From Candidatus Dadabacteria bacterium (GTDB taxonomy: Bacteria; Desulfobacterota_D; UBA1144; Nemesobacterales; Nemesobacteraceae): a stretch of 64,000 nucleotides of DNA. The position numbers were made by a program, and so were the translations under genes. Within the stretch, counting starts at the first letter, position 1; each line of letters opens with the position of its first letter. The DNA is taken from contig JAJEGO010000065.1 of assembly GCA_022819805.1 (NCBI GenBank), forward strand, positions 4,794 through 68,793, in the 5' to 3' direction. The notes under the pieces are model-generated. The model did no database searches. It saw nothing but the letters and a program-made list of their open reading frames with translations, and had not been told where the DNA came from. Of the stretch, positions 18,538 through 26,844 are shown in pieces.

Positions 18538-18650
18538 GCTTCTGCCAACATACTGAAACTGTTTAAGTTTCAATTTTTCCCGCCTGCCGTCACGGGAAGG
18601 CTTCGTTTGGGGAATTGTTATTTGGTTTTTTCGACTTTAATATTAAGGAA

Positions 18651-19325
18651 GTGTCTGGAAAAGCGGTTGTAATGGTTTCTGGAGGCGTGGACAGTTCGAC
18701 TCTCTGCTACAAGGCGGTGCGGGAAGGTTACGCAGTATTTCCTCTTACCTTTATATACGGGCAAAAGCACGAGAAAGAGATCCGTTCCTCAGAGAATATA
18801 TGCCGCCGCCTGGGACTTGCCGCCAACATAATAGATCTTTCTTCGATAAGGACTCTTTTCGGCGCCTGCGCGCTTACCGACGGGGACGTCGAGATTCCGA
18901 GAGTCTCCGCGGCGGCGCGCAATTACGATACCCTCTCCACTACAGTCGTTCCGAACCGAAACGCCATTTTTCTTTCTCTGGCGGTCGCCTATTCGCAGAG
19001 CATCGGCTGCGACACGGTATTCTACGGCGCGCATCATTCCGACAGGGGAGTGTATCCCGACTGCCGCCTGGAGTTCGTTTCCGCTTTCGAGGAGGCCGAG
19101 AAGCTCGCGACTGACAATGAACGGCTCTCCATAGTCGCTCCGTTTGTGGATCTGGATAAATCAGGGATAGTCAGACTCGGCGCGCGTCTCGGGGTTCCCT
19201 TCGAAGACACATGGTCGTGTTACGTGGGCTCCCGGACGCACTGCGGCACCTGCAGTTCCTGCAGGGAGAGGAAAAGGGCTTTTATCGAAGCGGGTATAGC
19301 CGATCCGACCGAATACGAGGCGTAA
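18651..19325 (+). CDS. queC: 7-cyano-7-deazaguanine synthase
   Basis: PP-loop SGGVDSS and C-terminal Zn-binding CxxC...CxxC motifs. The start is uncertain: GTG at 18651 or ATG at 18672. Confidence 0.88.
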   Translation: MSGKAVVMVSGGVDSSTLCYKAVREGYAVFPLTFIYGQKHEKEIRSSENICRRLGLAANIIDLSSIRTLFGACALTDGDVEIPRVSAAARNYDTLSTTVVPNRNAIFLSLAVAYSQSIGCDTVFYGAHHSDRGVYPDCRLEFVSAFEEAEKLATDNERLSIVAPFVDLDKSGIVRLGARLGVPFEDTWSCYVGSRTHCGTCSSCRERKRAFIEAGIADPTEYEA

Positions 19326-19330
19326 CTGCG

Positions 19331-19972
19331 GTGAAGGTAAACGAGATCTTTTTTTCGATACAGGGTGAAGGAGTCCATATCGGGCTGCCGACGGTTTTTC
19401 TCAGGCTCTTTGCCTGTGATCTCAGGTGCAGCTGGTGTGACACCATGTACGCCGTGGAGGGATCTGACTTCCGGGAGATGGAAACCGGTGAAGTGCTGAA
19501 CCAGATTCTTGGGTATGGCTGCTCCCGGGTCTGCATAACTGGAGGGGAACCCCTTATCCAGCGCAGTGCCGTGGAGGAGGTGACGGAACTTTTGCTCGAG
19601 AAGGATTTTGTGGTCGTGCTTGAAACAAGCGGACACAAGAAGCCTCCCGGGATCTTCTCCCATCCCAATTCGGTCGTGAGCATGGACTGCAAGTGTCCCG
19701 GTTCGGGCATGGCCTCCAGAATGGATTTTTCCCTCTACGACGCCTTGGAAGAGAAGGACCAGCTTAAGTTCGTAATAGCCGATGAAGCTGACTACGAGTA
19801 CGCGAGGGGTGTTATAGCCGAGCATCGCATCAAGGCCTCGATCATATTTCAGCCAGTTTACGGCACAAAAGCGGACTGGATAGCGGAGAGAGTTCTCCGC
19901 GACGGCATGGAAGACATAAGGGTGCTTCCGCAGCTTCACAAAATATTCTGGGGAGAGAAAAGAGGGGTTTAG
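19331..19972 (+). CDS. queE: 7-carboxy-7-deazaguanine synthase (radical SAM)
   Basis: EIFFSIQGEG and the CDLRCSWCDT cluster. A GTG start just after the queC stop was chosen. The ORF-track start at 19211 lies inside queC. Confidence 0.88.
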   Translation: MKVNEIFFSIQGEGVHIGLPTVFLRLFACDLRCSWCDTMYAVEGSDFREMETGEVLNQILGYGCSRVCITGGEPLIQRSAVEEVTELLLEKDFVVVLETSGHKKPPGIFSHPNSVVSMDCKCPGSGMASRMDFSLYDALEEKDQLKFVIADEADYEYARGVIAEHRIKASIIFQPVYGTKADWIAERVLRDGMEDIRVLPQLHKIFWGEKRGV

Positions 19973-20102
19973 CCTCCTTGCGTTATTTTTAGACCTCGGC
20001 CCCGTCTTTAATTTTTTAACGCTTTTTGTTGTTATTGTGTTAAAATTCAGGGTATAAAACATAGTTTGTGCGGGCGGGTTTAAAGCCGAGGAGAGATGTG
20101 CT

Positions 20103-20966
20103 GTGGAAGAACATACTGAAGATTACAATTATGAGCCTTTTGCCGATACCGAGGAATACAGAAAGGTAAATGGCGATATGACAAGAAACTGGATCCAGAT
20201 AATGGTTGACAGGGGGGTTGAGAGCCTCGACAAGTTTCTTGACATCGCTACAGGCGCAGGCACCATGGCGCAGCTTTTTTTCGATATGCTCCCTGCAAAC
20301 CTCAGGGAATCAGCGGTTTTCTGCCTTGACCAGTCGGCCGGCGCTCTTAAGCTTGCCAAAAGCAGGCTTGAGAAAGAGGTTGACAAACTGACCCTTATCA
20401 ACTCATCCATACAGGAGCTTGATCTGCCTCCGAAAAGCCTTGACGTGGCGGTATGGGGTAACGGCATCCACTACCTTGACGAGGAGGAGCAGATCAAGAG
20501 CCTTAAGGCGATCAAAAAGGCGCTTAAGCCCGGGGGATGGTTCTTTTTCAACACCGCTTTTTACGAAGAGGCAAGGCCCGCGGAGACCATACCTTTCTAC
20601 AGAACCCAGGTGAGAAACGCCGTCCAGTTTCTCAAAAAACAGGGGATAAAGAGAGTGAAAGTCGAGAGAAAAGCCGAAGCCGCGAAGTTTCACCCGCGTT
20701 CCTACTACGAGGAACTGGTCGGCGAGTTGGGGTTTGATCTTATCGACGCCCAGGAGTTTGCCGCCGACCTTACGAAAGAAGCTTGGGAGCATATCAGTTC
20801 CTTCCAGCAGTATGCCGCCGGCGCCCTTCACGGCTATCCGGATGAGGCTGCTTCCGATGCGATGAAAAACGCGGTTGAGCCTGCCATCCTTCTCCACGGC
20901 GAAGTGAATGAGGACGGCAACCATTTCGTTACCAGAAAATGGCTTTCAATAAGCGCACGCGCGTGA
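20103..20966 (+). CDS. class I SAM-dependent methyltransferase
   Basis: Motif I LDIATGAGTMAQ and a post-I acidic residue, with a Rossmann-like order of motifs. The substrate is unknown. Confidence 0.7.
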   Translation: MEEHTEDYNYEPFADTEEYRKVNGDMTRNWIQIMVDRGVESLDKFLDIATGAGTMAQLFFDMLPANLRESAVFCLDQSAGALKLAKSRLEKEVDKLTLINSSIQELDLPPKSLDVAVWGNGIHYLDEEEQIKSLKAIKKALKPGGWFFFNTAFYEEARPAETIPFYRTQVRNAVQFLKKQGIKRVKVERKAEAAKFHPRSYYEELVGELGFDLIDAQEFAADLTKEAWEHISSFQQYAAGALHGYPDEAASDAMKNAVEPAILLHGEVNEDGNHFVTRKWLSISARA

Positions 20967-20984: not shown

Positions 20985-21305
20985 CTATTCGCCCGACACG
21001 CTGTTTTTCCTGAGAAAATCGAATGTGTAGAATCCGGTCTCGCACCAGATCTCGCCTATAAACCTTATAGCGTAATTACCGACGTACTCTATCCTCTCCG
21101 GCGCCATGCCGCTTTTTCCGAGAGGAATCCGTTTTTTAAACGGAAGTTTCCCGGTCCTGCTTTTTTTTCTGAGCCTTCTGCAGGTGGCACAAGGGCAGAT
21201 TTCCCTGAGTTCCTCGTAAAAGAATATGCTCTCCTCCCCGTCATCCCAGACGATCTGAAGAGCTTTTTCGGTAAATTCGTTTATTTCCCTAGGTTTTACG
21301 CTCAC
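20985..21305 (-). CDS. DUF971 domain protein (gamma-butyrobetaine hydroxylase-like N-terminal domain)
   Basis: 106 aa. A conserved Zn-ribbon CPCATC follows W..DG...F. Confidence 0.6.
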   Translation of the reverse strand: MSVKPREINEFTEKALQIVWDDGEESIFFYEELREICPCATCRRLRKKSRTGKLPFKKRIPLGKSGMAPERIEYVGNYAIRFIGEIWCETGFYTFDFLRKNSVSGE

Positions 21306-21449
21306 GAATGATATTTTACCTGTCCGCTGAACAGCAATCGATCTGAACGGATTTCACTGTGTTGAGGTATCGGTCTGAGTACAATTCTAACTTCGACCGC
21401 CTTTATTCAGCGTGGTCTCAAGCGCCACAAGCAGTTGAGGGATTATCTT

Positions 21450-21459
21450 GGGGGGGGGG
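21450..21459 (+). repeat. G10 homopolymeric tract in the intergenic region upstream of the sirtuin-like gene
   Basis: Directly read: ctt-gggggggggg-cagttaac. Confidence 0.95.
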
Positions 21460-21519
21460 CAGTTAACTCGGTGTTTTTTGCGGTCCGGTATAGGCTGCTG
21501 TTGGCAGGCCAAGGTCAAT

Positions 21520-21549
21520 TTGCGGACAGTTAACGCAAGCGGTTATAAT
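21520..21549 (+). promoter_or_regulatory. candidate sigma70-type promoter (TTGCGG, 18-nt spacer, TATAAT) 12 nt upstream of the sirtuin-like ATG; the GTTAAC palindrome occurs in the spacer and again at 21460
   Basis: Sequence reading only. The leader would be very short. Confidence 0.3.
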
Positions 21550-21560
21550 CAAAACCTGAA

Positions 21561-22325
21561 ATGAGCGAGCAGGAACAGGATGCGCTCTCGGCGACGGTCA
21601 AGTGGATACAGGAAGCCTCTCAGATAGTTTTTCTAACGGGAGTTGAACTCTCTCTTGAAGTTGGGCTGCCCGACGTCTCTGATCTGAGCTTCAATCCCGA
21701 CATAGGAAAATTCAAGAATCGCCCGGAGGTAAGAAGGGAGTACTGGGAAAAAATAAAGGACTTCTATCCCAGAATTTCCGAGGCGCGGCCCTCTCCGGCC
21801 CACGAAGCGATCTACGAGATGGAGTTTCTCTCCAACGTTGACTGCGTTTTGACCCAGGCGGCCGACGGTCTGCACAACAAAACCGGCAGCGAGAGGATAA
21901 TAGAGATATACTCGTCGATAAACTGGATTCACTGCCACGAATGCGGAAACGATTACCGCACCGACGGGATTCTGCTTTCCCTTGAGGACAGCAAAACCGG
22001 CATTCCGAAATGCAAGGAATGCCAGAGCGATCAGATGAAGCCTCCGCTGTCCTTCCCCGGACAGCCGCTTCCTCACTGGGAGATAAGGGAGTCCTGGATG
22101 AGGCTTCAGCACTGCGATCTTTTCATAGTTGTCGGGGCGAATCTGGAAATCGAGCCCGTGGCGTCCTTTCCCTTTCAGGTGATGAATAAGGGGAACAGGG
22201 TCGTTATTATCGGCGAGAGAAAAACCCCGGCCGACGATTACGTAAGCGCCGTCATATACGGAAGCCCGAGCCAGGTCATGCCTTACATAGTTGATAAACT
22301 CAAGGAAACCCATACGGTCTCCTGA
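21561..22325 (+). CDS. sirtuin (Sir2/CobB) fold protein with degenerate NAD-binding and catalytic motifs
   Basis: Aligns along its whole length with CobB. The Zn-ribbon CHEC...CKEC is retained. GAGIS is replaced by GVELS, QNID(N/D)LH by QAADGLH, and the catalytic HG by YS. Confidence 0.7.
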   Translation: MSEQEQDALSATVKWIQEASQIVFLTGVELSLEVGLPDVSDLSFNPDIGKFKNRPEVRREYWEKIKDFYPRISEARPSPAHEAIYEMEFLSNVDCVLTQAADGLHNKTGSERIIEIYSSINWIHCHECGNDYRTDGILLSLEDSKTGIPKCKECQSDQMKPPLSFPGQPLPHWEIRESWMRLQHCDLFIVVGANLEIEPVASFPFQVMNKGNRVVIIGERKTPADDYVSAVIYGSPSQVMPYIVDKLKETHTVS

Positions 22326-22380
22326 ACCGCGGGAGCCCTGGGAGGGGAATGGGAGAGCAGGCTTGTCCACCGAGACAAAA

Positions 22381-23856
22381 ATGGATGATAAAGACGTTGC
22401 CCGGGAGATGGAACGCTACGTTTCTAATCTCGACAGGGACATCTACACAATAAGCAACATTCCCGAGGAAGTCGTTGCCGTAATCTTTGCCTACGTAAGC
22501 AGAAGCCCCAAGAGTTTCAGGGAAAACATAGACACCGTGATAAGGGAGCAGGAGATGGGGAGGGACAGGGCGGAGAAGTTCCACGAGAAGTGGGTTCTTA
22601 ACTACGGTCACGCTTCTGTTGCCGAGCACGCGACCGTGCACATAGGAGTTGAGAGGGTTTCAAGGCTTTTCTCGTCCCTGCTTGAATGCGTAAACGAATT
22701 CCTCTCGTTTACCGAATACTCGCAGAGATACCAGAGACCGCGCAAAGGCGACAACTATATTCCCCAGGAGCTTGACCAGCACCTCGCCCTTAAAAAGGAG
22801 TTCGAGGAGCTTTGCGATTTTCAGTACGAGGTTTACTCGCAGCTTAACACCGAGCTTTTTGATTTTCTGAAGACAAAGTTTCCCGTTCCCGAAGGCAAGG
22901 AGGAGAAAGCCCACTTCAGGGCGCTTGAGAAAATAGCGTTTGAGGACGCAAGGTATGCCCTTAATCTCTCCACACTTACGAATCTCGGCATGACGGCGAA
23001 CGCAAGGGCCATGGAGCAGACCATCTCCGCTCTTCTCTCGAGCCGCTACCTTGAGGCGAGAAACAGGGCCGAGGAGATAAAAAGCGAGGTCAGGTTCTCG
23101 GTTCCGACGCTTGTGAAGTACGCTGACGAGAACCCCTACATAGTTGGAACGCGAGAGGCGCTCGAGGATCTCTCGCGTGGTCTTGGCGATGCCGGAGAGA
23201 ACCAACCCGGTAACGGGTCATCGGTCACCCTTTTTGACTACACGGGGCGGGGAAAGGAAAATCCCGAGGCCGAGGCTCTAAGGGAGATTGCAAGAGGCCT
23301 TCTTTTCGAATTCTCGGGACTTCCAATCGGAGACATAGAAAGGCACCTTTCCGAAAACACCCCGGAGCTTGAGAGGATCTTCTCAATCTCCGTTGAGGAA
23401 CTTGGAAAGTACGACAACCCGGCGGGCATATTCAGATCGGTTAACTACAGCGCGGAGTTTGTCCTGAGCGAGGCGGCGTGGCATCAGCTGCTTAGGCACA
23501 GGAAAGTCAGCTGGACCGTAAAGGAGCCTTCCGTGGGAGAGGGCGTGACGATTCCACCGCACGTTACGGAATCGGGAACGGAGGAGCTTCTGCTCGAGGC
23601 CGTCGGGCGAAGCGAGCGTTTCCATGAAGAACTCGTCGACGCCGGTCTTCGTGACGTGGCGAGCTATGTTGTCACAAACGCCCACAACAGGAGAGTCTGC
23701 GGCAGCTTAGATCTCTGGGAGCTGTACCACCTGACGAACCTGCGGATGTCTGAGGGGGCGCAATGGGACATAAAGAACGTCATTGGGCAGCTTGCCCAAG
23801 AGATTGGCAAGGTGCATCCGGTCTTCGTTCGTTCCGCTTTGAAGAGGGTTGGTTAA
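22381..23856 (+). CDS. thyX: flavin-dependent thymidylate synthase ThyX-like, tandem-duplicated (two Thy1 domains)
   Basis: The N-half keeps GHASVAEH and SQRY. The C-half keeps RHR-x9-S and RxxSxxAQWDI. The start is the first in-frame ATG; the ORF-track start at 22291 is a TTG. Confidence 0.65.
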   Translation: MDDKDVAREMERYVSNLDRDIYTISNIPEEVVAVIFAYVSRSPKSFRENIDTVIREQEMGRDRAEKFHEKWVLNYGHASVAEHATVHIGVERVSRLFSSLLECVNEFLSFTEYSQRYQRPRKGDNYIPQELDQHLALKKEFEELCDFQYEVYSQLNTELFDFLKTKFPVPEGKEEKAHFRALEKIAFEDARYALNLSTLTNLGMTANARAMEQTISALLSSRYLEARNRAEEIKSEVRFSVPTLVKYADENPYIVGTREALEDLSRGLGDAGENQPGNGSSVTLFDYTGRGKENPEAEALREIARGLLFEFSGLPIGDIERHLSENTPELERIFSISVEELGKYDNPAGIFRSVNYSAEFVLSEAAWHQLLRHRKVSWTVKEPSVGEGVTIPPHVTESGTEELLLEAVGRSERFHEELVDAGLRDVASYVVTNAHNRRVCGSLDLWELYHLTNLRMSEGAQWDIKNVIGQLAQEIGKVHPVFVRSALKRVG

Positions 23857-23874: not shown

Positions 23875-24096
23875 TTGATGTCGCTTCAGCCTGTGAGAAG
23901 ATGTGAAGAATGTGGTTACGAGACCACGGCGAAAACGGATATATGCCTTTCCTGCGGAGAGAGGATGCGGCGCAGGGCGAAAGGTGGAGTCAGGGGACTT
24001 CTTCGAAGTGTAATACTTATAGCGATCGCGGTTTACATCCTTTTGTCCGCGTTTAAGGTTTTCGGATTTTCACCGGGGGCGGGGTATTATGGCTGA
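23875..24096 (+). CDS. small zinc-ribbon protein with C-terminal TM helix
   Basis: CEECGY...CLSCGE, followed by the hydrophobic segment LLRSVILIAIAVYILLSAF. Confidence 0.5.
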   Translation: MMSLQPVRRCEECGYETTAKTDICLSCGERMRRRAKGGVRGLLRSVILIAIAVYILLSAFKVFGFSPGAGYYG

Positions 24097-24586
24097 TCCC
24101 GATCACGTCTCGAAAGTAAAAAATGGTGCGGCCGCGTGGAACCGGTGGCGTGAGGAAGAGCCCGATGTCCTGCCGGATCTTGGCTGGGCGAATATTAACG
24201 GGCTTGATCTTGACGGCGCGGTATTTGCGGGGGCAGTTCTCAAGCTTGCTTTCTGCAAGGGGTGCAGCCTGGTGGGTGCGGATTTCTCAGGGGCGAGCAT
24301 GCGTGGAGTAAACTTCGAGGGATGTGATCTTCGGGGTGCTGTATTCAGGGATGCCAACCTTGAGGGAGCTCACATGCTCGGGGCCGATCTCACGGGTGCC
24401 GATTTCACGGGTGCTAACCTCAAGCTTGCGAATTTTGACGGGGCGATTCTCAGGGATGCCGACCTTACGGGCGCGAAGAAACTTCGGGCCCCGCAACTCT
24501 TCGCTCTCAAGGACCTTCAGAATCTCAAGGTTTCAGACGCAGTCCTTGAGAAGGTAAAAGAGCAGTCTCCGCATCTATTTGAGTGA
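24089..24586 (+). CDS. pentapeptide-repeat protein
   Basis: About 20 consecutive A(D/N)LxG-type pentapeptides. The start overlaps the preceding stop (ATGGCTGA). Confidence 0.8.
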   Translation: MADPDHVSKVKNGAAAWNRWREEEPDVLPDLGWANINGLDLDGAVFAGAVLKLAFCKGCSLVGADFSGASMRGVNFEGCDLRGAVFRDANLEGAHMLGADLTGADFTGANLKLANFDGAILRDADLTGAKKLRAPQLFALKDLQNLKVSDAVLEKVKEQSPHLFE

Positions 24587-25848: not shown

Positions 25849-26844
25849 TCAGGGAACGACGGAAAGACTCTTCAGTTCGACGACGGATATGTCCTGCGCG
25901 AGCAGAAGGTCTCTTGTCCTCTCAGGCGGGGGAACATCCGTGAGTAGAAGCCTTATCCTTCCCCCGAGGGCGCTTCTTAGGTCCTCACCCGATCCGTTTC
26001 CACCTCCGAGCCTGTTAACGAGATTTTCGATTTCCGCACCCGCAAGAAAAAGCATGACCGGCATTATCTCGGGGACATCCGCGAAAAAATCTTCCGTGTC
26101 CTCTGCTATGGCCCCCCTGGCCGCGGTCTGCAGGTTGAGCAGATTGGCGAATTTTGAAAAAGAACCGCTACGGGGAAGGTAGGAAAACGTTTGGTCCTCG
26201 ATCGAAATCGCCCCTAGTTCCTGTTCTGATAGGCGCAGGAGATCAAGTATGTCTCCATGGGAGAATCCCCTGTTTTCATCGGGGGCGCCTCCCGCATTGA
26301 ATATTACGGCCTCTGAGTCTTCCTTTACCGAACTTCCAAGCGCGTTTATCTCGTCCTTGAGCTTTTTTCTGGCGAGAAAACCGAATTTTACGACGTTCGG
26401 GTAACTGACTATTTCTTCCTCTACTGGAACCCTATCGTTTACGCTTAGAAAGGCTTTTTCTACTTTTTCTCCAAGCATGGGGTCCCCGACCAGTTTCCGC
26501 GCGTCATCTGTGCTTGCGGAGAGCAAAAAGCAGTCTCCAGCAGCGATCTCGAGAATATCCCTTGCTTCCTTGAAGCTCCTTGCAGGCAGAGATGTTCCCC
26601 CGAGCGTGAATACAGCCAGTTCGAAAAAAAGGCACGCCAAGGTGTTGGGCGAGAGAACAATTATCCTGCTTCCGGTGGAGAAACCCGAATTCAGAAGAAA
26701 GCAGGCTATGCTTTCAACCTCGGTCACGAGGTCGGGCCAGGTGATCTGTTTCCAGCTCCACCCGTCTTTTTTCTGAAACAGCAGCCTTGAGCCGTTTTCC
26801 TTTGTTCTCTCCCTGAGGAAATTATAGAAGTTTCTCTCATTCAT
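25849..26844 (-). CDS. AMP-dependent synthetase/ligase-like protein with degenerate motifs, apparently C-terminally truncated (possible pseudogene)
   Basis: Collinear with the N-terminal roughly 60 % of acyl-CoA synthetases. The P-loop TSGTTG is replaced by NAGGAP. The ORF stops 4 nt from the xseA stop, before the expected GYGxTE region. Confidence 0.45.
   Translation of the reverse strand: MNERNFYNFLRERTKENGSRLLFQKKDGWSWKQITWPDLVTEVESIACFLLNSGFSTGSRIIVLSPNTLACLFFELAVFTLGGTSLPARSFKEARDILEIAAGDCFLLSASTDDARKLVGDPMLGEKVEKAFLSVNDRVPVEEEIVSYPNVVKFGFLARKKLKDEINALGSSVKEDSEAVIFNAGGAPDENRGFSHGDILDLLRLSEQELGAISIEDQTFSYLPRSGSFSKFANLLNLQTAARGAIAEDTEDFFADVPEIMPVMLFLAGAEIENLVNRLGGGNGSGEDLRSALGGRIRLLLTDVPPPERTRDLLLAQDISVVELKSLSVVP

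What the first reader, a model, noticed from the sequence alone, without database searches (positions are those of the whole stretch)
21561..22325. Sirtuin-fold protein that has lost its NAD-binding and catalytic residues but keeps the zinc ribbon
The protein aligns with CobB/Sir2 from end to end. The Rossmann G-A-G-I-S is replaced by G-V-E-L-S. The QNID(N/D)LH motif is replaced by QAADGLH. The general-base His of the IELHG motif is replaced by Tyr (IEIYSS). Both CxxC pairs of the Zn module are intact. This looks like a pseudo-sirtuin, either a binding or scaffolding protein or an enzyme with altered chemistry. Its position is also worth following up. It sits behind a G10 tract, its own promoter and a DUF971 gene. 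It is immediately upstream of an unusual tandem ThyX-like gene, a Zn-ribbon membrane protein and a pentapeptide-repeat protein. Active SIR2 domains are common effectors in antiphage systems. An inactive sirtuin paired with a nucleotide-metabolism enzyme is not a described arrangement.
Basis: partly seen in the sequence, partly recalled or inferred. Interest (0 to 1): 0.65.

Follow-up and report, generated by a model that had tools for sequence, protein, structure and literature searches.

The report
Conserved pseudo-sirtuin beside tandem ThyX
This gene encodes a protein with a complete sirtuin fold and zinc ribbon that is kept under very strong selection across the Dadabacteria, yet the whole family lacks the residues every studied sirtuin uses to bind NAD+ and catalyse, so it is a working "dead enzyme" of unknown role that almost always sits just upstream of an unusual double-domain thymidylate synthase gene.

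Summary
ORF 21561-22325 (+, 254 aa) aligns end to end with archaeal and bacterial sirtuins and models as a sirtuin (pLDDT 93, TM 0.84). Both CxxC pairs are intact. GAGIS is GVELS, the Phe-Arg of the cofactor loop is Val-Ser, QNID is QAAD, HG is YS, FGE is PGQ, GSS is GAN, and the adenine-ribose Asn is Gly.

This is not one decaying copy. I found about 75 species-level orthologues, all Dadabacteria-type. None has the full canonical residue set. All share substitute invariants: Glu or Asp at the second Gly of GAG, never an Arg at the FR position, SFPGQxxPHWExRExW, and W122. No copy has an internal stop. dN/dS is 0.05, the lowest of nine neighbouring genes. The nearest out-group sirtuins are fully canonical.

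The tandem ThyX-like gene follows directly in about 90% of genomes. However, gene order in this block is generally well kept, rate covariation shows no special coupling, and distant tandem ThyX genes occur without this protein.

My verdict is a new, catalytically degenerate sirtuin clade that most likely acts as a non-catalytic binding or regulatory protein. ThyX is the leading client, but that link is unproven. The G10 tract is incidental, and there is no antiphage signature.

The parts
21561..22325 (+). SIRL: coding sequence of the 254-aa sirtuin-fold protein (pseudo-sirtuin)
   Evidence: ORF. Pfam SIR2 E 3.8e-24. End-to-end alignment to Sir2-Af2. AF2 pLDDT 93 and TM 0.84 to Sir2Af2/Sir2Tm. 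75 intact orthologues, dN/dS 0.049.
21639..21653 (+). G27-V28-E29-L30-S31, in place of the Rossmann GAGIS pyrophosphate loop. The Glu (Asp in 5) at the second Gly is a family invariant.
   Evidence: Alignment to 1ma3. Census: G27 in 74/74; position 29 is E 68, D 5, G 1. All out-groups have GAG.
21675..21680 (+). V39-S40, in place of the Phe-Arg of the NAD cofactor-binding loop. The loop is also about 8-9 residues shorter than in canonical sirtuins.
   Evidence: alignment. Census: Arg never present (S 56, A 6, T 6, G 4, L 2); Phe kept in 29 of 75. The loop gaps are visible in alignment A2.
21852..21866 (+). T98-Q99-A100-A101-D102, in place of TQNID. Thr, Gln and Asp are kept; Asn and Ile are lost.
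   Evidence: Census: Q99 in 73/75, D102 in 75/75, Asn position A 41, T 17, S 10, N 5, C 2.
21909..21914 (+). Y117-S118, in place of the catalytic His-Gly. This position is not conserved in the family.
   Evidence: Census: Y 41, N 21, H 9, L 3, F 1. The codon TAC was read.
21933..22022 (+). Zn-ribbon module, C125-x2-C128 ... C151-x2-C154. W122 is a new invariant just upstream of it.
   Evidence: All four Cys and W122 are present in 75 of 75.
22038..22097 (+). New family-invariant block K160-P-P-x-S164-F165-P166-G167-Q168-x-x-P171-H172-W173-E174-x-R176-E177-x-W179. It replaces the FGE loop and the helix that follows it.
   Evidence: Invariant columns in A1 and in the 75-sequence census. Absent from the canonical out-groups.
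21544..21549 (+). Conserved TATAAT box 11 nt upstream of the ATG, with no Shine-Dalgarno sequence. Probable promoter giving a very short leader.
   Evidence: Conserved in the upstream alignment of relatives at 82-98% protein identity, while the surrounding sequence varies. The consensus scan did not call it because the -35 element is weak. This is an inference.
22381..23856 (+). ThyX2: tandem Thy1-domain protein of 491 aa, a candidate flavin-dependent thymidylate synthase, 55 nt downstream on the same strand. It is the candidate client or partner of SIRL.
   Evidence: Pfam Thy1 E 6e-46 with two stretches. Motifs are split between the two halves. Adjacency 67/74, or 72/74 within 1.6 kb; 59/60 when anchored on ThyX2.
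20985..21305 (-). DUF971 / GBBH-like_N gene, transcribed divergently from SIRL. The two stay together as a head-to-head pair even where the ThyX2 arrangement is broken.
   Evidence: Pfam PF06155 E 1e-15. Adjacency 50/69. The pair is retained in the rearranged loci L053 and L155.
23875..24096 (+). Small Zn-ribbon plus transmembrane protein (73 aa), downstream on the same strand. Whether it belongs to the same functional unit is uncertain.
   Evidence: ORF. Weak DZR hit below Pfam threshold. Present in most loci.
24089..24586 (+). Pentapeptide-repeat protein (165 aa). Its start overlaps the stop of the Zn-ribbon gene by 8 nt. Whether it belongs to the same functional unit is uncertain.
   Evidence: Pfam Pentapeptide E 3.6e-40. 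ThyX2-PRP adjacency 53/68 overall and 23/38 in deep lineages.

Best explanation
SIRL belongs to a previously undescribed clade of sirtuin-fold proteins restricted to the Dadabacteria. The clade descends from an ordinary Zn-ribbon bacterial/archaeal sirtuin.

As a clade it has lost the ability to bind NAD+ in the sirtuin manner and to catalyse deacylation. The pyrophosphate-contacting Gly is now Glu or Asp. The loop Arg, the phosphate-binding Ser and the ribose-binding Asn are gone. The cofactor loop is shortened. The general-base position drifts freely.

The fold and zinc ribbon are kept. A new invariant surface has been gained (E29, W122, S164-F-P-G-Q168, P171-H-W-E-x-R-E-x-W179). By homology with solved sirtuins, this surface lines the mouth of the former acyl-lysine/NAD cleft.

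I therefore think SIRL works as a non-catalytic binding protein, a pseudoenzyme, that uses the remodelled cleft to hold a protein segment or small ligand. The most likely client is the tandem flavin-dependent thymidylate synthase encoded 55 nt downstream and probably co-transcribed. On this reading SIRL would be an accessory or regulatory subunit.

What is shown: fold, motif states, clade-wide conservation, purifying selection, gene adjacency.

What is inferred: loss of NAD+ binding (from the established roles of these residues in Sir2Tm, Sir2Af2 and Hst2), the position of the new surface, and any interaction with ThyX2.

My probabilities: functional protein that is not an NAD-dependent deacylase, about 0.85. 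Non-catalytic binder rather than a new enzyme, about 0.55. ThyX2 is the client, about 0.3-0.35.
For: - Fold and homology.
- Seven NAD or catalytic contact positions are replaced in the window protein and across 75 orthologues. The nearest out-groups, at 31-33% identity, keep every one of them.
- It is a discrete clade. The exhaustive representative search gives family members at 205-286 bits, then a drop to canonical sirtuins at 128 bits or less.
- All NCBIfam deacylase models score far below their cut-offs.
- The gene is not decaying. 75 of 75 copies have no stop codon, and median dN/dS is 0.049, the lowest of nine syntenic genes including QueC, XseA and the CCA-adding enzyme.
- New invariant residues cluster in the FGE-loop and helix region.
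- The general-base position varies (Y, N, H, L, F), which argues that no catalytic role is selected there.
- Link to ThyX2: same strand, usually 30-130 nt apart, adjacent in 67/74 and within 1.6 kb in 72/74; 59/60 when anchored on ThyX2 in metagenomes. The intergenic gap is 55 nt with no called terminator.
- ThyX2 carries each canonical ThyX motif exactly once across its two halves, which fits an active enzyme with two live and two dead sites.
- Conceptual precedent: pseudoenzymes encoded beside the enzymes they regulate in Thermus thermophilus (bioRxiv 10.1101/2025.10.31.685773).
Against: - No binding or activity data exist. Loss of NAD+ binding is inferred from residue identities only.
- T98, Q99, D102, G27, S31 and D225 are retained. 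Phe of FR is kept in 29 of 75, His at the base position in 9 of 75, and Asn of QNxD in 5 of 75. A weakened or altered nucleotide site therefore cannot be excluded.
- The link to ThyX2 is weak beyond adjacency. Functionally unrelated pairs in the same block are retained as well or better (AMP-binding-like/CCA 55/56; PRP/XseA 25/30 in deep lineages).
- Branch-based rate covariation between SIRL and ThyX2 is about zero (-0.22 to 0.10).
- In L053 and L155 SIRL is not on the same strand as ThyX2, yet it keeps DUF971 as its head-to-head neighbour.
- Tandem ThyX homologues at 39-44% identity in other lineages have no SIRL (8 of 8), so ThyX2 does not intrinsically need it.
- No SIRL-ThyX2 fusion occurs among 138 same-strand pairs.
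- I could not inspect model coordinates, so the position of the new residues at the cleft rests on alignment to known structures.
Confidence: 0.45

Rival explanations
1. SIRL is functionally independent of ThyX2. It is a core Dadabacteria protein, pseudoenzyme or not, whose client is something else. Candidates include the divergently transcribed DUF971 protein, a putative Fe-S maintenance factor, or a target encoded elsewhere. On this reading the adjacency to ThyX2 only reflects well-preserved gene order in small genomes.
For: - Background synteny is high: AMP-binding-like/CCA 55/56, XseA/AMP-binding-like 49/57, PRP/XseA 45/59.
- SIRL-ThyX2 branch rate covariation is about 0.
- The DUF971-SIRL head-to-head pair survives rearrangements that separate or invert SIRL relative to ThyX2 (L053, L155).
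- SIRL has its own conserved TATAAT box.
- Distant tandem ThyX genes lack SIRL.
Against: - SIRL-ThyX2 is still one of the best-retained pairs: 36/43 in deep lineages, against 28/38 for DUF971-SIRL and 2/32 for MTase-DUF971.
- The two genes are usually only 30-130 nt apart on the same strand, which is typical of co-transcription.
- DUF971-SIRL rate covariation is also about 0.
Confidence: 0.27
2. SIRL is still an enzyme, but with new NAD-independent chemistry or a different cofactor. The new active site would be built from the family-invariant polar residues (E29, D102, S164, Q168, H172, E174, R176, E177) on the sirtuin scaffold. Other members of the DHS-like NAD/FAD-binding superfamily bind FAD or NADP, so a flavin or another nucleotide is conceivable.
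For: - dN/dS of 0.049 is very strong constraint for a mere scaffold.
- The invariant polar and charged residues (H, E, R, E, Q, S) are of catalytic type and sit in the former active-site region.
- T98, Q99, D102 and D225, which touch the ribose, nicotinamide or adenine in sirtuins, are retained.
- The neighbouring gene encodes a flavoenzyme.
Against: - No known family or motif matches the new residues: Pfam and NCBIfam give sirtuin models only.
- The Glu at the pyrophosphate position argues against any dinucleotide bound in the sirtuin manner. This follows from established Rossmann-fold knowledge and is an inference.
- There is no experimental or structural ligand evidence.
Confidence: 0.18
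3. SIRL is still an NAD+-consuming sirtuin with atypical residues. The model here is the class M sirtuins, which replace the catalytic His and ADP-ribosylate a protein encoded in the same operon. On this reading SIRL might ADP-ribosylate ThyX2.
For: - SirTM shows that a sirtuin without the catalytic His can be an active, operon-specific ADP-ribosyltransferase (PMC4518038).
- SIRL keeps Q99 and D102 and is operon-linked to a candidate target.
Against: - SirTM keeps its NAD contacts (Asn118, Asp120, a pyrophosphate loop, Asn258) and has an invariant Gln at the His position with a paired Arg.
- In SIRL the His position is variable (Y, N, H, L, F). The Asn of QNxD is lost in 70 of 75. The GAG second Gly is acidic in 73 of 74. 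The loop Arg is always absent. GSS and the ribose-binding Asn are lost, and the cofactor loop is shortened.
- There is no macrodomain or other ADP-ribose-reversing gene in the neighbourhood.
Confidence: 0.08
4. SIRL is either a decaying sirtuin pseudogene or the inactive remnant of an antiphage SIR2 defence module.
For: The only support is the loss of catalytic motifs in the single window sequence, plus the general fact that SIR2 domains occur in defence systems.
Against: - 75 of 75 orthologues are intact, dN/dS is 0.049, and new invariant motifs have appeared.
- It is present in essentially every Dadabacteria-type genome sampled, at a fixed core-genome position, with the same G+C as its surroundings.
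- None of the five genes gives a PADLOC hit.
- There is no PF13289 hit.
- It carries the Zn ribbon typical of housekeeping sirtuins.
Confidence: 0.02

Closest known systems
Canonical Zn-ribbon bacterial/archaeal sirtuins (CobB type; Sir2-Af2 PDB 1ma3/1yc2, Sir2Tm PDB 2h4f)
   Same: Same fold from end to end (TM 0.81-0.84, 25-30% identity). Same Zn-ribbon with two CxxC pairs. Same length. Retained: Thr-Gln and Asp of TQNxD, the PxxxH motif, the LH motif and the C-terminal Asp.
   Different: - The second Gly of GAG is Glu or Asp.
- The Arg of FR is always absent.
- The cofactor loop is about 8-9 residues shorter.
- The Asn of QNxD is mostly lost.
- The His of HG is not conserved, and its Gly is Ser or Ala.
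- FGE is PGQ, GSS is GA(N/S), and the ribose-binding Asn is Gly or Ser.
- A new invariant PHWExRExW helix and W122 are present.
- It scores far below all NCBIfam deacylase cut-offs.

The window protein naturally carries the same His-to-Tyr change as the engineered Sir2Tm H116Y mutant, which was crystallised with NAD and peptide still bound (PDB 2h4h, listed).
Class M sirtuins (SirTM; Rack et al. 2015, PMC4518038)
   Same: A sirtuin clade with a Zn domain that lacks the catalytic His, has no deacylase activity, and is genetically tied to a specific partner gene in the same operon.
   Different: SirTM has an invariant Gln (QG) with a paired Arg. It keeps its NAD+ contacts and binds NAD+ in crystals. 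It is linked to a macrodomain, GcvH-L and LplA2, and it is an active ADP-ribosyltransferase. SIRL has a variable residue at that position, has lost its NAD contacts, and has no macrodomain neighbour.
Defence-type SIR2 domains (ThsA, DSR, SIR2-HerA, SPARSA; Pfam PF13289 SIR2_2; PADLOC models)
   Same: Members of the wider SIR2 superfamily that are not protein deacylases.
   Different: From established knowledge, those are NAD+-degrading effectors without the sirtuin Zn ribbon, found in variable defence islands. SIRL has the Zn ribbon, hits PF02146 and not PF13289, gives no PADLOC hit, and is a fixed core gene.
Pseudoenzyme regulators encoded beside their target enzyme (Thermus thermophilus ADLP-CoA transferase and APRTh-GDH; bioRxiv 10.1101/2025.10.31.685773). 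Class IIa HDACs are a related case: deacetylase-fold proteins with a substituted catalytic residue that act mainly as scaffolds (PMC12383505 abstract).
   Same: Functional analogy only. Each is an enzyme homologue that has lost catalysis, is retained under selection, and, in the Thermus cases, is encoded next to the enzyme it regulates.
   Different: The folds and targets are different. The Thermus pseudoenzymes keep binding of the original ligand (NAD(H) or AMP) as the sensed signal, whereas SIRL appears to have lost its dinucleotide site. No interaction has been shown for SIRL.

Membership tests
Sirtuin / SIR2 superfamily (Pfam PF02146; sirtuin fold) | Significant match to the SIR2 profile above the gathering score | tested here: met
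   PF02146 scores 86.1 bits against a cut-off of 24, E 3.8e-24, over residues 49-199.
Sirtuin / SIR2 superfamily (Pfam PF02146; sirtuin fold) | Rossmann-type large domain plus a small Zn-binding domain with two CxxC pairs | tested here: met
   AF2 model with pLDDT 93, TM 0.81-0.84 to Sir2Af2 and Sir2Tm. C125, C128, C151 and C154 are invariant in 75 of 75.
NAD-dependent protein deacylase (CobB / class U-III sirtuin; NCBIfam NF040867, NF001753 and related models) | Score above the curated family cut-off | tested here: not met
   Best scores are 142.8 and 142.2 bits, against cut-offs of 243 and 320. All seven models score below cut-off.
NAD-dependent protein deacylase (CobB / class U-III sirtuin; NCBIfam NF040867, NF001753 and related models) | GAG(I/V)S pyrophosphate-binding loop and the Phe-Arg of the cofactor-binding loop | tested here: not met
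   The loop is GVELS. Position 29 is E 68, D 5, G 1 across the family. Arg is absent in 75 of 75. The loop is shortened.
NAD-dependent protein deacylase (CobB / class U-III sirtuin; NCBIfam NF040867, NF001753 and related models) | Catalytic His of the HG motif and Asn/Asp of QNxD | tested here: not met
   The His position is Y 41, N 21, H 9, L 3, F 1. The Asn position is A 41, T 17, S 10, N 5, C 2. Only Gln and Asp are retained.
NAD-dependent protein deacylase (CobB / class U-III sirtuin; NCBIfam NF040867, NF001753 and related models) | NAD+-dependent deacylase activity | not testable with these tools
   This needs purified protein, NAD+ binding measurements (ITC or DSF) and acyl-peptide assays.
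Class M sirtuins (SirTM) | Invariant QG in place of HG with a paired Arg, and retained NAD+ contacts | tested here: not met
   No Gln occurs at that position in any of the 75 sequences, and the NAD contacts are lost. The SirTM features are taken from PMC4518038.
Class M sirtuins (SirTM) | Operon linkage to a macrodomain (with or without GcvH-L and LplA2) | tested here: not met
   The neighbours are DUF971, Thy1 x2, a Zn-ribbon protein, a pentapeptide protein, XseA, an AMP-binding-like protein and the CCA enzyme. No macrodomain is present in the window or in L075 and L076.
Antiphage SIR2 effectors (PF13289; PADLOC SIR2-containing systems) | Match to SIR2_2 or defence-system models, and location in a variable defence island with partner genes | tested here: not met
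   There is no PF13289 hit at E <= 0.01. SIRL and four neighbours give 0 PADLOC hits. The locus is fixed and syntenic in 74 species.
Flavin-dependent thymidylate synthase ThyX (applies to the neighbouring gene 22381-23856) | Thy1 domain and the ThyX motif RHRxxS, plus the dUMP and FAD-binding Ser and Arg residues | tested here: inconclusive
   Pfam Thy1 scores 157 bits with two stretches, but TIGR02170 scores 76.6 against a cut-off of 87.9. RHR is present only in the C-half (R372-H373-R374) and SQRY only in the N-half (S114-R116-Y117). Every motif is present once. Activity is untested, and the AF2 model was too poor to use.

The most novel reading that the evidence does not exclude
SIRL is an obligate non-catalytic subunit of the Dadabacteria tandem flavin-dependent thymidylate synthase. 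A sirtuin scaffold, stripped of NAD+ chemistry, would use its remodelled cleft (E29, W122, PHWExRExW) to dock onto the pseudo-tetrameric ThyX2, for example at its two degenerate sites. There it would control flavin reduction, substrate access or the wasteful NADPH-oxidase side reaction. This would be the first sirtuin-fold pseudoenzyme and the first dedicated protein partner known for a ThyX enzyme.
Probability: 0.15. Interest if true: 0.8.

Novelty: new variant of a known kind. Interest (0 to 1): 0.55.

Why it matters
Sirtuins are treated as universally NAD+-dependent enzymes. The 2015 class M paper states that the catalytic His is present in all other described sirtuins, and I found no report of a naturally dead sirtuin clade that keeps the Zn ribbon.

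A class-wide family under stronger purifying selection than its housekeeping neighbours shows that the sirtuin scaffold has a selectable function unrelated to NAD+ chemistry. That gives a natural system for asking what the fold can do besides catalysis.

Databases currently name these proteins either "hypothetical protein" or "SIR2 family NAD-dependent protein deacylase" / "NAD-dependent deacetylase". The second label is probably wrong and will inflate predictions of acetylation-regulation capacity in Dadabacteria.

If the link to the tandem ThyX is real, it would reveal an accessory factor for flavin-dependent thymidylate synthase. That enzyme is an antibacterial target whose regulation and reductant supply in vivo are poorly understood.

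Tried and rejected
- Single decaying copy: rejected. 75 intact orthologues, dN/dS 0.049, new invariant motifs.
- Antiphage SIR2: rejected. No PADLOC or PF13289 hit, and it is a core syntenic gene.
- SirTM membership: rejected.
- G10 tract as a phase-variation or regulatory element: rejected. No G or C run of 8 or more upstream of SIRL in any of 74 related loci. It lies in an insert of about 100 nt shared only with L019, and that insert is not repeated in the window.
- Structured RNA or riboswitch in the 255-nt upstream region: no Rfam match anywhere near it.
- The promoter/terminator consensus scan was uninformative, giving counts equal to shuffled sequence.
- Evolutionary rate covariation to identify SIRL's partner. 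Pairwise-distance residuals pointed to the AMP-binding-like gene (r 0.65). The branch-based version brought that down to about 0.4, which is the level of unrelated pairs, and SIRL-ThyX2 to about 0. No partner is supported.
- Rosetta-stone fusion. The protein database places 254-aa SIRL and 482-aa ThyX2 sequences in one 90% cluster, but none of 138 loci has a fused ORF. The cause is probably a frameshifted gene call chaining the cluster. This also hid all SIRL relatives above 90% identity.
- Second, canonical sirtuin in Dadabacteria: none in the window or in 1.96 Mb of held loci. Whole genomes could not be searched.
- AF2 model of ThyX2: pLDDT 62, unusable.
- The afdb50 fold library was unavailable.
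- Literature searches for ThyX + sirtuin, Dadabacteria + thymidylate, tandem ThyX and pseudo-sirtuin found nothing relevant.
Full report
**1. The observation**

The ORF at 21561-22325 (+) encodes 254 aa. It matches Pfam SIR2 (PF02146, 86 bits), but only over residues 49-199. Every NCBIfam CobB/deacylase model scores about 143 bits or less against cut-offs of 221-395.

phmmer aligns residues 14-249 to Sir2-Af2 residues 10-248 (E 1.5e-34). In that alignment:
- GAGIS is GVELS.
- The Phe-Arg of the cofactor loop is Val-Ser.
- TQNID is TQAAD.
- LHGS is IYSS.
- FGE is PGQ.
- GSS is GAN.
- The adenine-ribose Asn is Gly.

Both CxxC pairs are intact. An AlphaFold2 model is confident (pLDDT 93.1, pTM 0.89). 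Its best PDB matches are Sir2Af2 and Sir2Tm at TM 0.81-0.84.

**2. One bad copy, or a family?**

A word-indexed search found 47 clusters at 47-84% identity, and the named ones are Candidatus Dadabacteria. An exhaustive HMMER search of 1.84 billion representatives found only two family clusters (286 and 205 bits). After those the scores drop to canonical sirtuins at 128 bits or less and about 33% identity.

A scan of one genome per species returned 74 loci. All are Dadabacteria-type MAGs. NCBI ranks Dadabacteria as a class of Thermodesulfobacteriota, which explains the mixed labels on the records.

The residue census over 75 sequences gives:
- First Gly of GAG: G in 74 of 74.
- Second Gly of GAG: E 68, D 5, G 1.
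- Phe of FR: kept in 29 of 75.
- Arg of FR: never present.
- Gln99: 73 of 75. Asp102: 75 of 75.
- Asn of QNxD: A 41, T 17, S 10, N 5, C 2.
- General base: Y 41, N 21, H 9, L 3, F 1.
- Gly of HG: Ser or Ala in all but two.
- FGE: PGQ in essentially all.
- GSS: G-A-(N 41 / S 27).
- Ribose-binding Asn: G 38, S 28, N 9.
- All four Cys: 75 of 75.

No member has the full canonical set. New invariants appear: W122 and the block K160-P-P-x-S-F-P-G-Q-x-x-P-H-W-E-x-R-E-x-W179. The cofactor-binding loop is about 8-9 residues shorter than in canonical relatives.

The nearest out-groups carry every canonical motif. One of them is annotated as a Lokiarchaeota deacylase. SIRL therefore descends from an ordinary sirtuin and changed as a clade.

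**3. Selection**

All 75 copies lack internal stops. Nei-Gojobori dN/dS against 11 close relatives has a median of 0.049. That is the lowest of nine syntenic genes: MTase 0.054, CCA 0.073, DUF971 0.085, XseA 0.089, QueC 0.111, ThyX2 0.112, PRP 0.139, AMP-binding-like 0.148. The gene is functional and tightly constrained.

**4. What the substitutions mean (inference from established sirtuin and Rossmann-fold structural knowledge)**

The second Gly of GAG lets the NAD+ pyrophosphate approach the N-terminus of the first helix. A Glu or Asp there should block and repel it. The loop Arg, the Ser of GSS and the Asn after the last strand are phosphate and ribose ligands, and all are gone. The loop that closes over NAD+ is truncated.

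The general-base position is free to vary, so no catalytic role is selected there. The window's His-to-Tyr change is the same as in the engineered Sir2Tm H116Y mutant that was crystallised with NAD and peptide intact (PDB 2h4h).

Retention of Thr98, Gln99, Asp102 and Asp225 means that a residual or altered nucleotide or ribose site cannot be excluded.

By alignment, the new invariant helix PHWExRExW immediately follows the former FGE loop, which in sirtuins forms one wall of the acyl-lysine cleft. Its conserved residues follow an i, i+1, i+2, i+4, i+5 pattern, as expected for an exposed functional face. The protein is acidic (pI 5.0), so a nucleic-acid-binding role is unlikely.

**5. Genomic context**

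SIRL has a conserved TATAAT box 11 nt upstream of its ATG and no Shine-Dalgarno sequence. The G10 tract lies in an insert of about 100 nt that is absent from all but one relative (L019, which lacks the G run), so it is incidental. Rfam finds nothing there.

Downstream, 55 nt away on the same strand, is a 491-aa tandem Thy1 protein that I call ThyX2. It is followed by a 73-aa Zn-ribbon/TM protein and a pentapeptide-repeat protein whose start overlaps the preceding stop.

ThyX2 lies on the same strand within 1.6 kb in 72 of 74 species and is strictly adjacent in 67 of 74. Anchoring on ThyX2 in metagenomes, 59 of 60 Dadabacteria-type loci have SIRL. Eight of eight more distant tandem ThyX genes (39-44% identity, unrelated contexts) have none.

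DUF971 is the head-to-head neighbour in 50 of 69 loci. It stays with SIRL in the two arrangements where SIRL is not co-oriented with ThyX2 (L053 and L155). DUF971 has been proposed from cofitness data to be an Fe-S maintenance factor (bioRxiv 10.1101/072470).

**6. How strong is the ThyX link?**

It is weaker than it looks.
- Unrelated pairs in the same block are retained as well: AMP-binding-like/CCA 55 of 56, and PRP/XseA 25 of 30 in deep lineages.
- Branch-based rate covariation for SIRL-ThyX2 is about 0. SIRL's best value, about 0.4 with the AMP-binding-like gene, is no higher than for unrelated pairs.
- No fusion exists among 138 pairs.
- The odd database cluster that mixes SIRL and ThyX2 sequences is best explained by a frameshifted gene call.

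Adjacency with probable co-transcription remains the only evidence. I put the probability of functional coupling at about one third.

**7. The partner itself**

ThyX2 is distant from solved ThyX proteins (E 1e-4 as a single sequence, 9e-9 as a profile). Using M. tuberculosis ThyX numbering from those alignments:
- The N-half keeps the equivalents of H69, S71, E74, H75, R87, S100, S105, R107, Y108, R172, N188 and R190. It lacks H91, R95, R97, H194 and R199.
- The C-half keeps exactly the residues the N-half lacks (H368, R372-H373-R374, H450, R455). It lacks those the N-half has.

ThyX active sites are built from several subunits (established knowledge). This pattern therefore fits a dimer of tandem proteins with two complete and two degenerate sites. 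The same pattern occurs in the distant tandem ThyX genes that lack SIRL. The AF2 model was too poor to use.

**8. Comparison with known families**

- SIRL is a member of the sirtuin superfamily by profile and fold.
- It fails the defining features of NAD-dependent deacylases.
- It fails those of class M sirtuins: invariant QG with a paired Arg, retained NAD contacts, macrodomain linkage (PMC4518038).
- It fails those of defence SIR2 proteins: no PF13289 or PADLOC hits, and it is a core gene.

I found no description of a catalytically dead sirtuin clade or of a sirtuin-ThyX pairing. The closest functional analogies are pseudoenzyme regulators encoded beside their target enzymes in Thermus.

**9. 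Verdict**

SIRL is a new, clade-wide, catalytically degenerate variant of the sirtuin family. It most probably acts as a non-catalytic binder. The neighbouring tandem ThyX is the leading client, but that link is unproven.

Interest is moderate to high (0.55). The pseudoenzyme status is well supported and unusual for this family. The biological role remains open and needs biochemistry.

Noticed in passing
window 22381-23856 (+): The tandem ThyX-like protein splits the canonical ThyX motifs between its halves. The N-half has GHxSxxEH, SxxxxSQRY and two downstream Arg, but no RHR. The C-half has HxxLRHRxxS and the LR...AQWDI block, but no SQRY. Every motif is present exactly once, which suggests a pseudo-tetramer with two live and two dead sites. 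The same pattern is seen in distant tandem ThyX genes from other lineages (L143, L153). I found no paper describing this architecture.
   Followed up: partly
window 25849-26844 (-): This is a conserved protein of about 331 aa that is a degenerate remnant of an adenylate-forming (AMP-binding) enzyme. Pfam scores it 30.9 bits over residues 30-94 only, and it has no PDB sequence match. It has an invariant DGWSWKQITW motif, a degenerate and variable P-loop region, and no C-terminal domain. It may be a second pseudoenzyme in the block. It is notable because AMP-forming acyl-CoA synthetases are the classic CobB sirtuin substrates. Its rate covariation with SIRL (about 0.4) is not above background.
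   Followed up: partly
window 21366-21475, including G10 at 21451-21460: The G10 run sits inside an insert of about 100 nt in the DUF971-SIRL intergenic region. Only one relative (L019) shares the insert, and there it has no G run. The insert is absent from the other close relatives and is not repeated elsewhere in the window. Its origin is unknown.
   Followed up: partly
window 21544-21563: A conserved TATAAT lies 11 nt before the SIRL ATG, with no Shine-Dalgarno sequence. This implies a near-leaderless transcript. The motif is conserved in relatives down to 82% protein identity.
   Followed up: partly
window 21561-23856 compared with L001-L013: Synonymous divergence of SIRL and ThyX2 (dS 0.23-0.42) is markedly lower than that of the flanking genes (0.5-0.8) against the same close relatives. 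Possible causes are codon-usage constraint from high expression, or recent recombination across this pair.
   Followed up: no
protein collection cluster of the window SIRL (P0317; representative P0219): In the 90%-identity protein clustering, 254-aa SIRL sequences and 482-aa ThyX2 sequences share one cluster of 266 members whose representative is a ThyX2. No fused ORF exists in 138 loci. A frameshifted gene call is the likely bridge. This hid all SIRL relatives above 90% identity from the word-indexed homology search.
   Followed up: partly
window 23875-24096 and 24089-24586 (+): The 73-aa Zn-ribbon/transmembrane protein and the pentapeptide-repeat protein overlap by 8 nt, which suggests translational coupling. 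They recur together downstream of ThyX2 in most Dadabacteria loci. Their function is unknown.
   Followed up: no
window 18615-20966 (+): QueC, a QueE-like radical-SAM protein and a SAM methyltransferase lie upstream. The link from the methyltransferase to DUF971 is kept only in the clade close to the window (27/62 overall, 2/32 in deep lineages). That marks the boundary of the conserved DUF971-SIRL-ThyX2 core.
   Followed up: partly
loci L020, L031, L036, L039, L040, L045, L047 (record titles): Several public MAG contigs that carry the complete Dadabacteria-type SIRL-ThyX2 block are labelled 'uncultured Spirochaetia' or 'Ignavibacteriales'. These are probably binning or taxonomy-label errors in the source records.
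   Followed up: no
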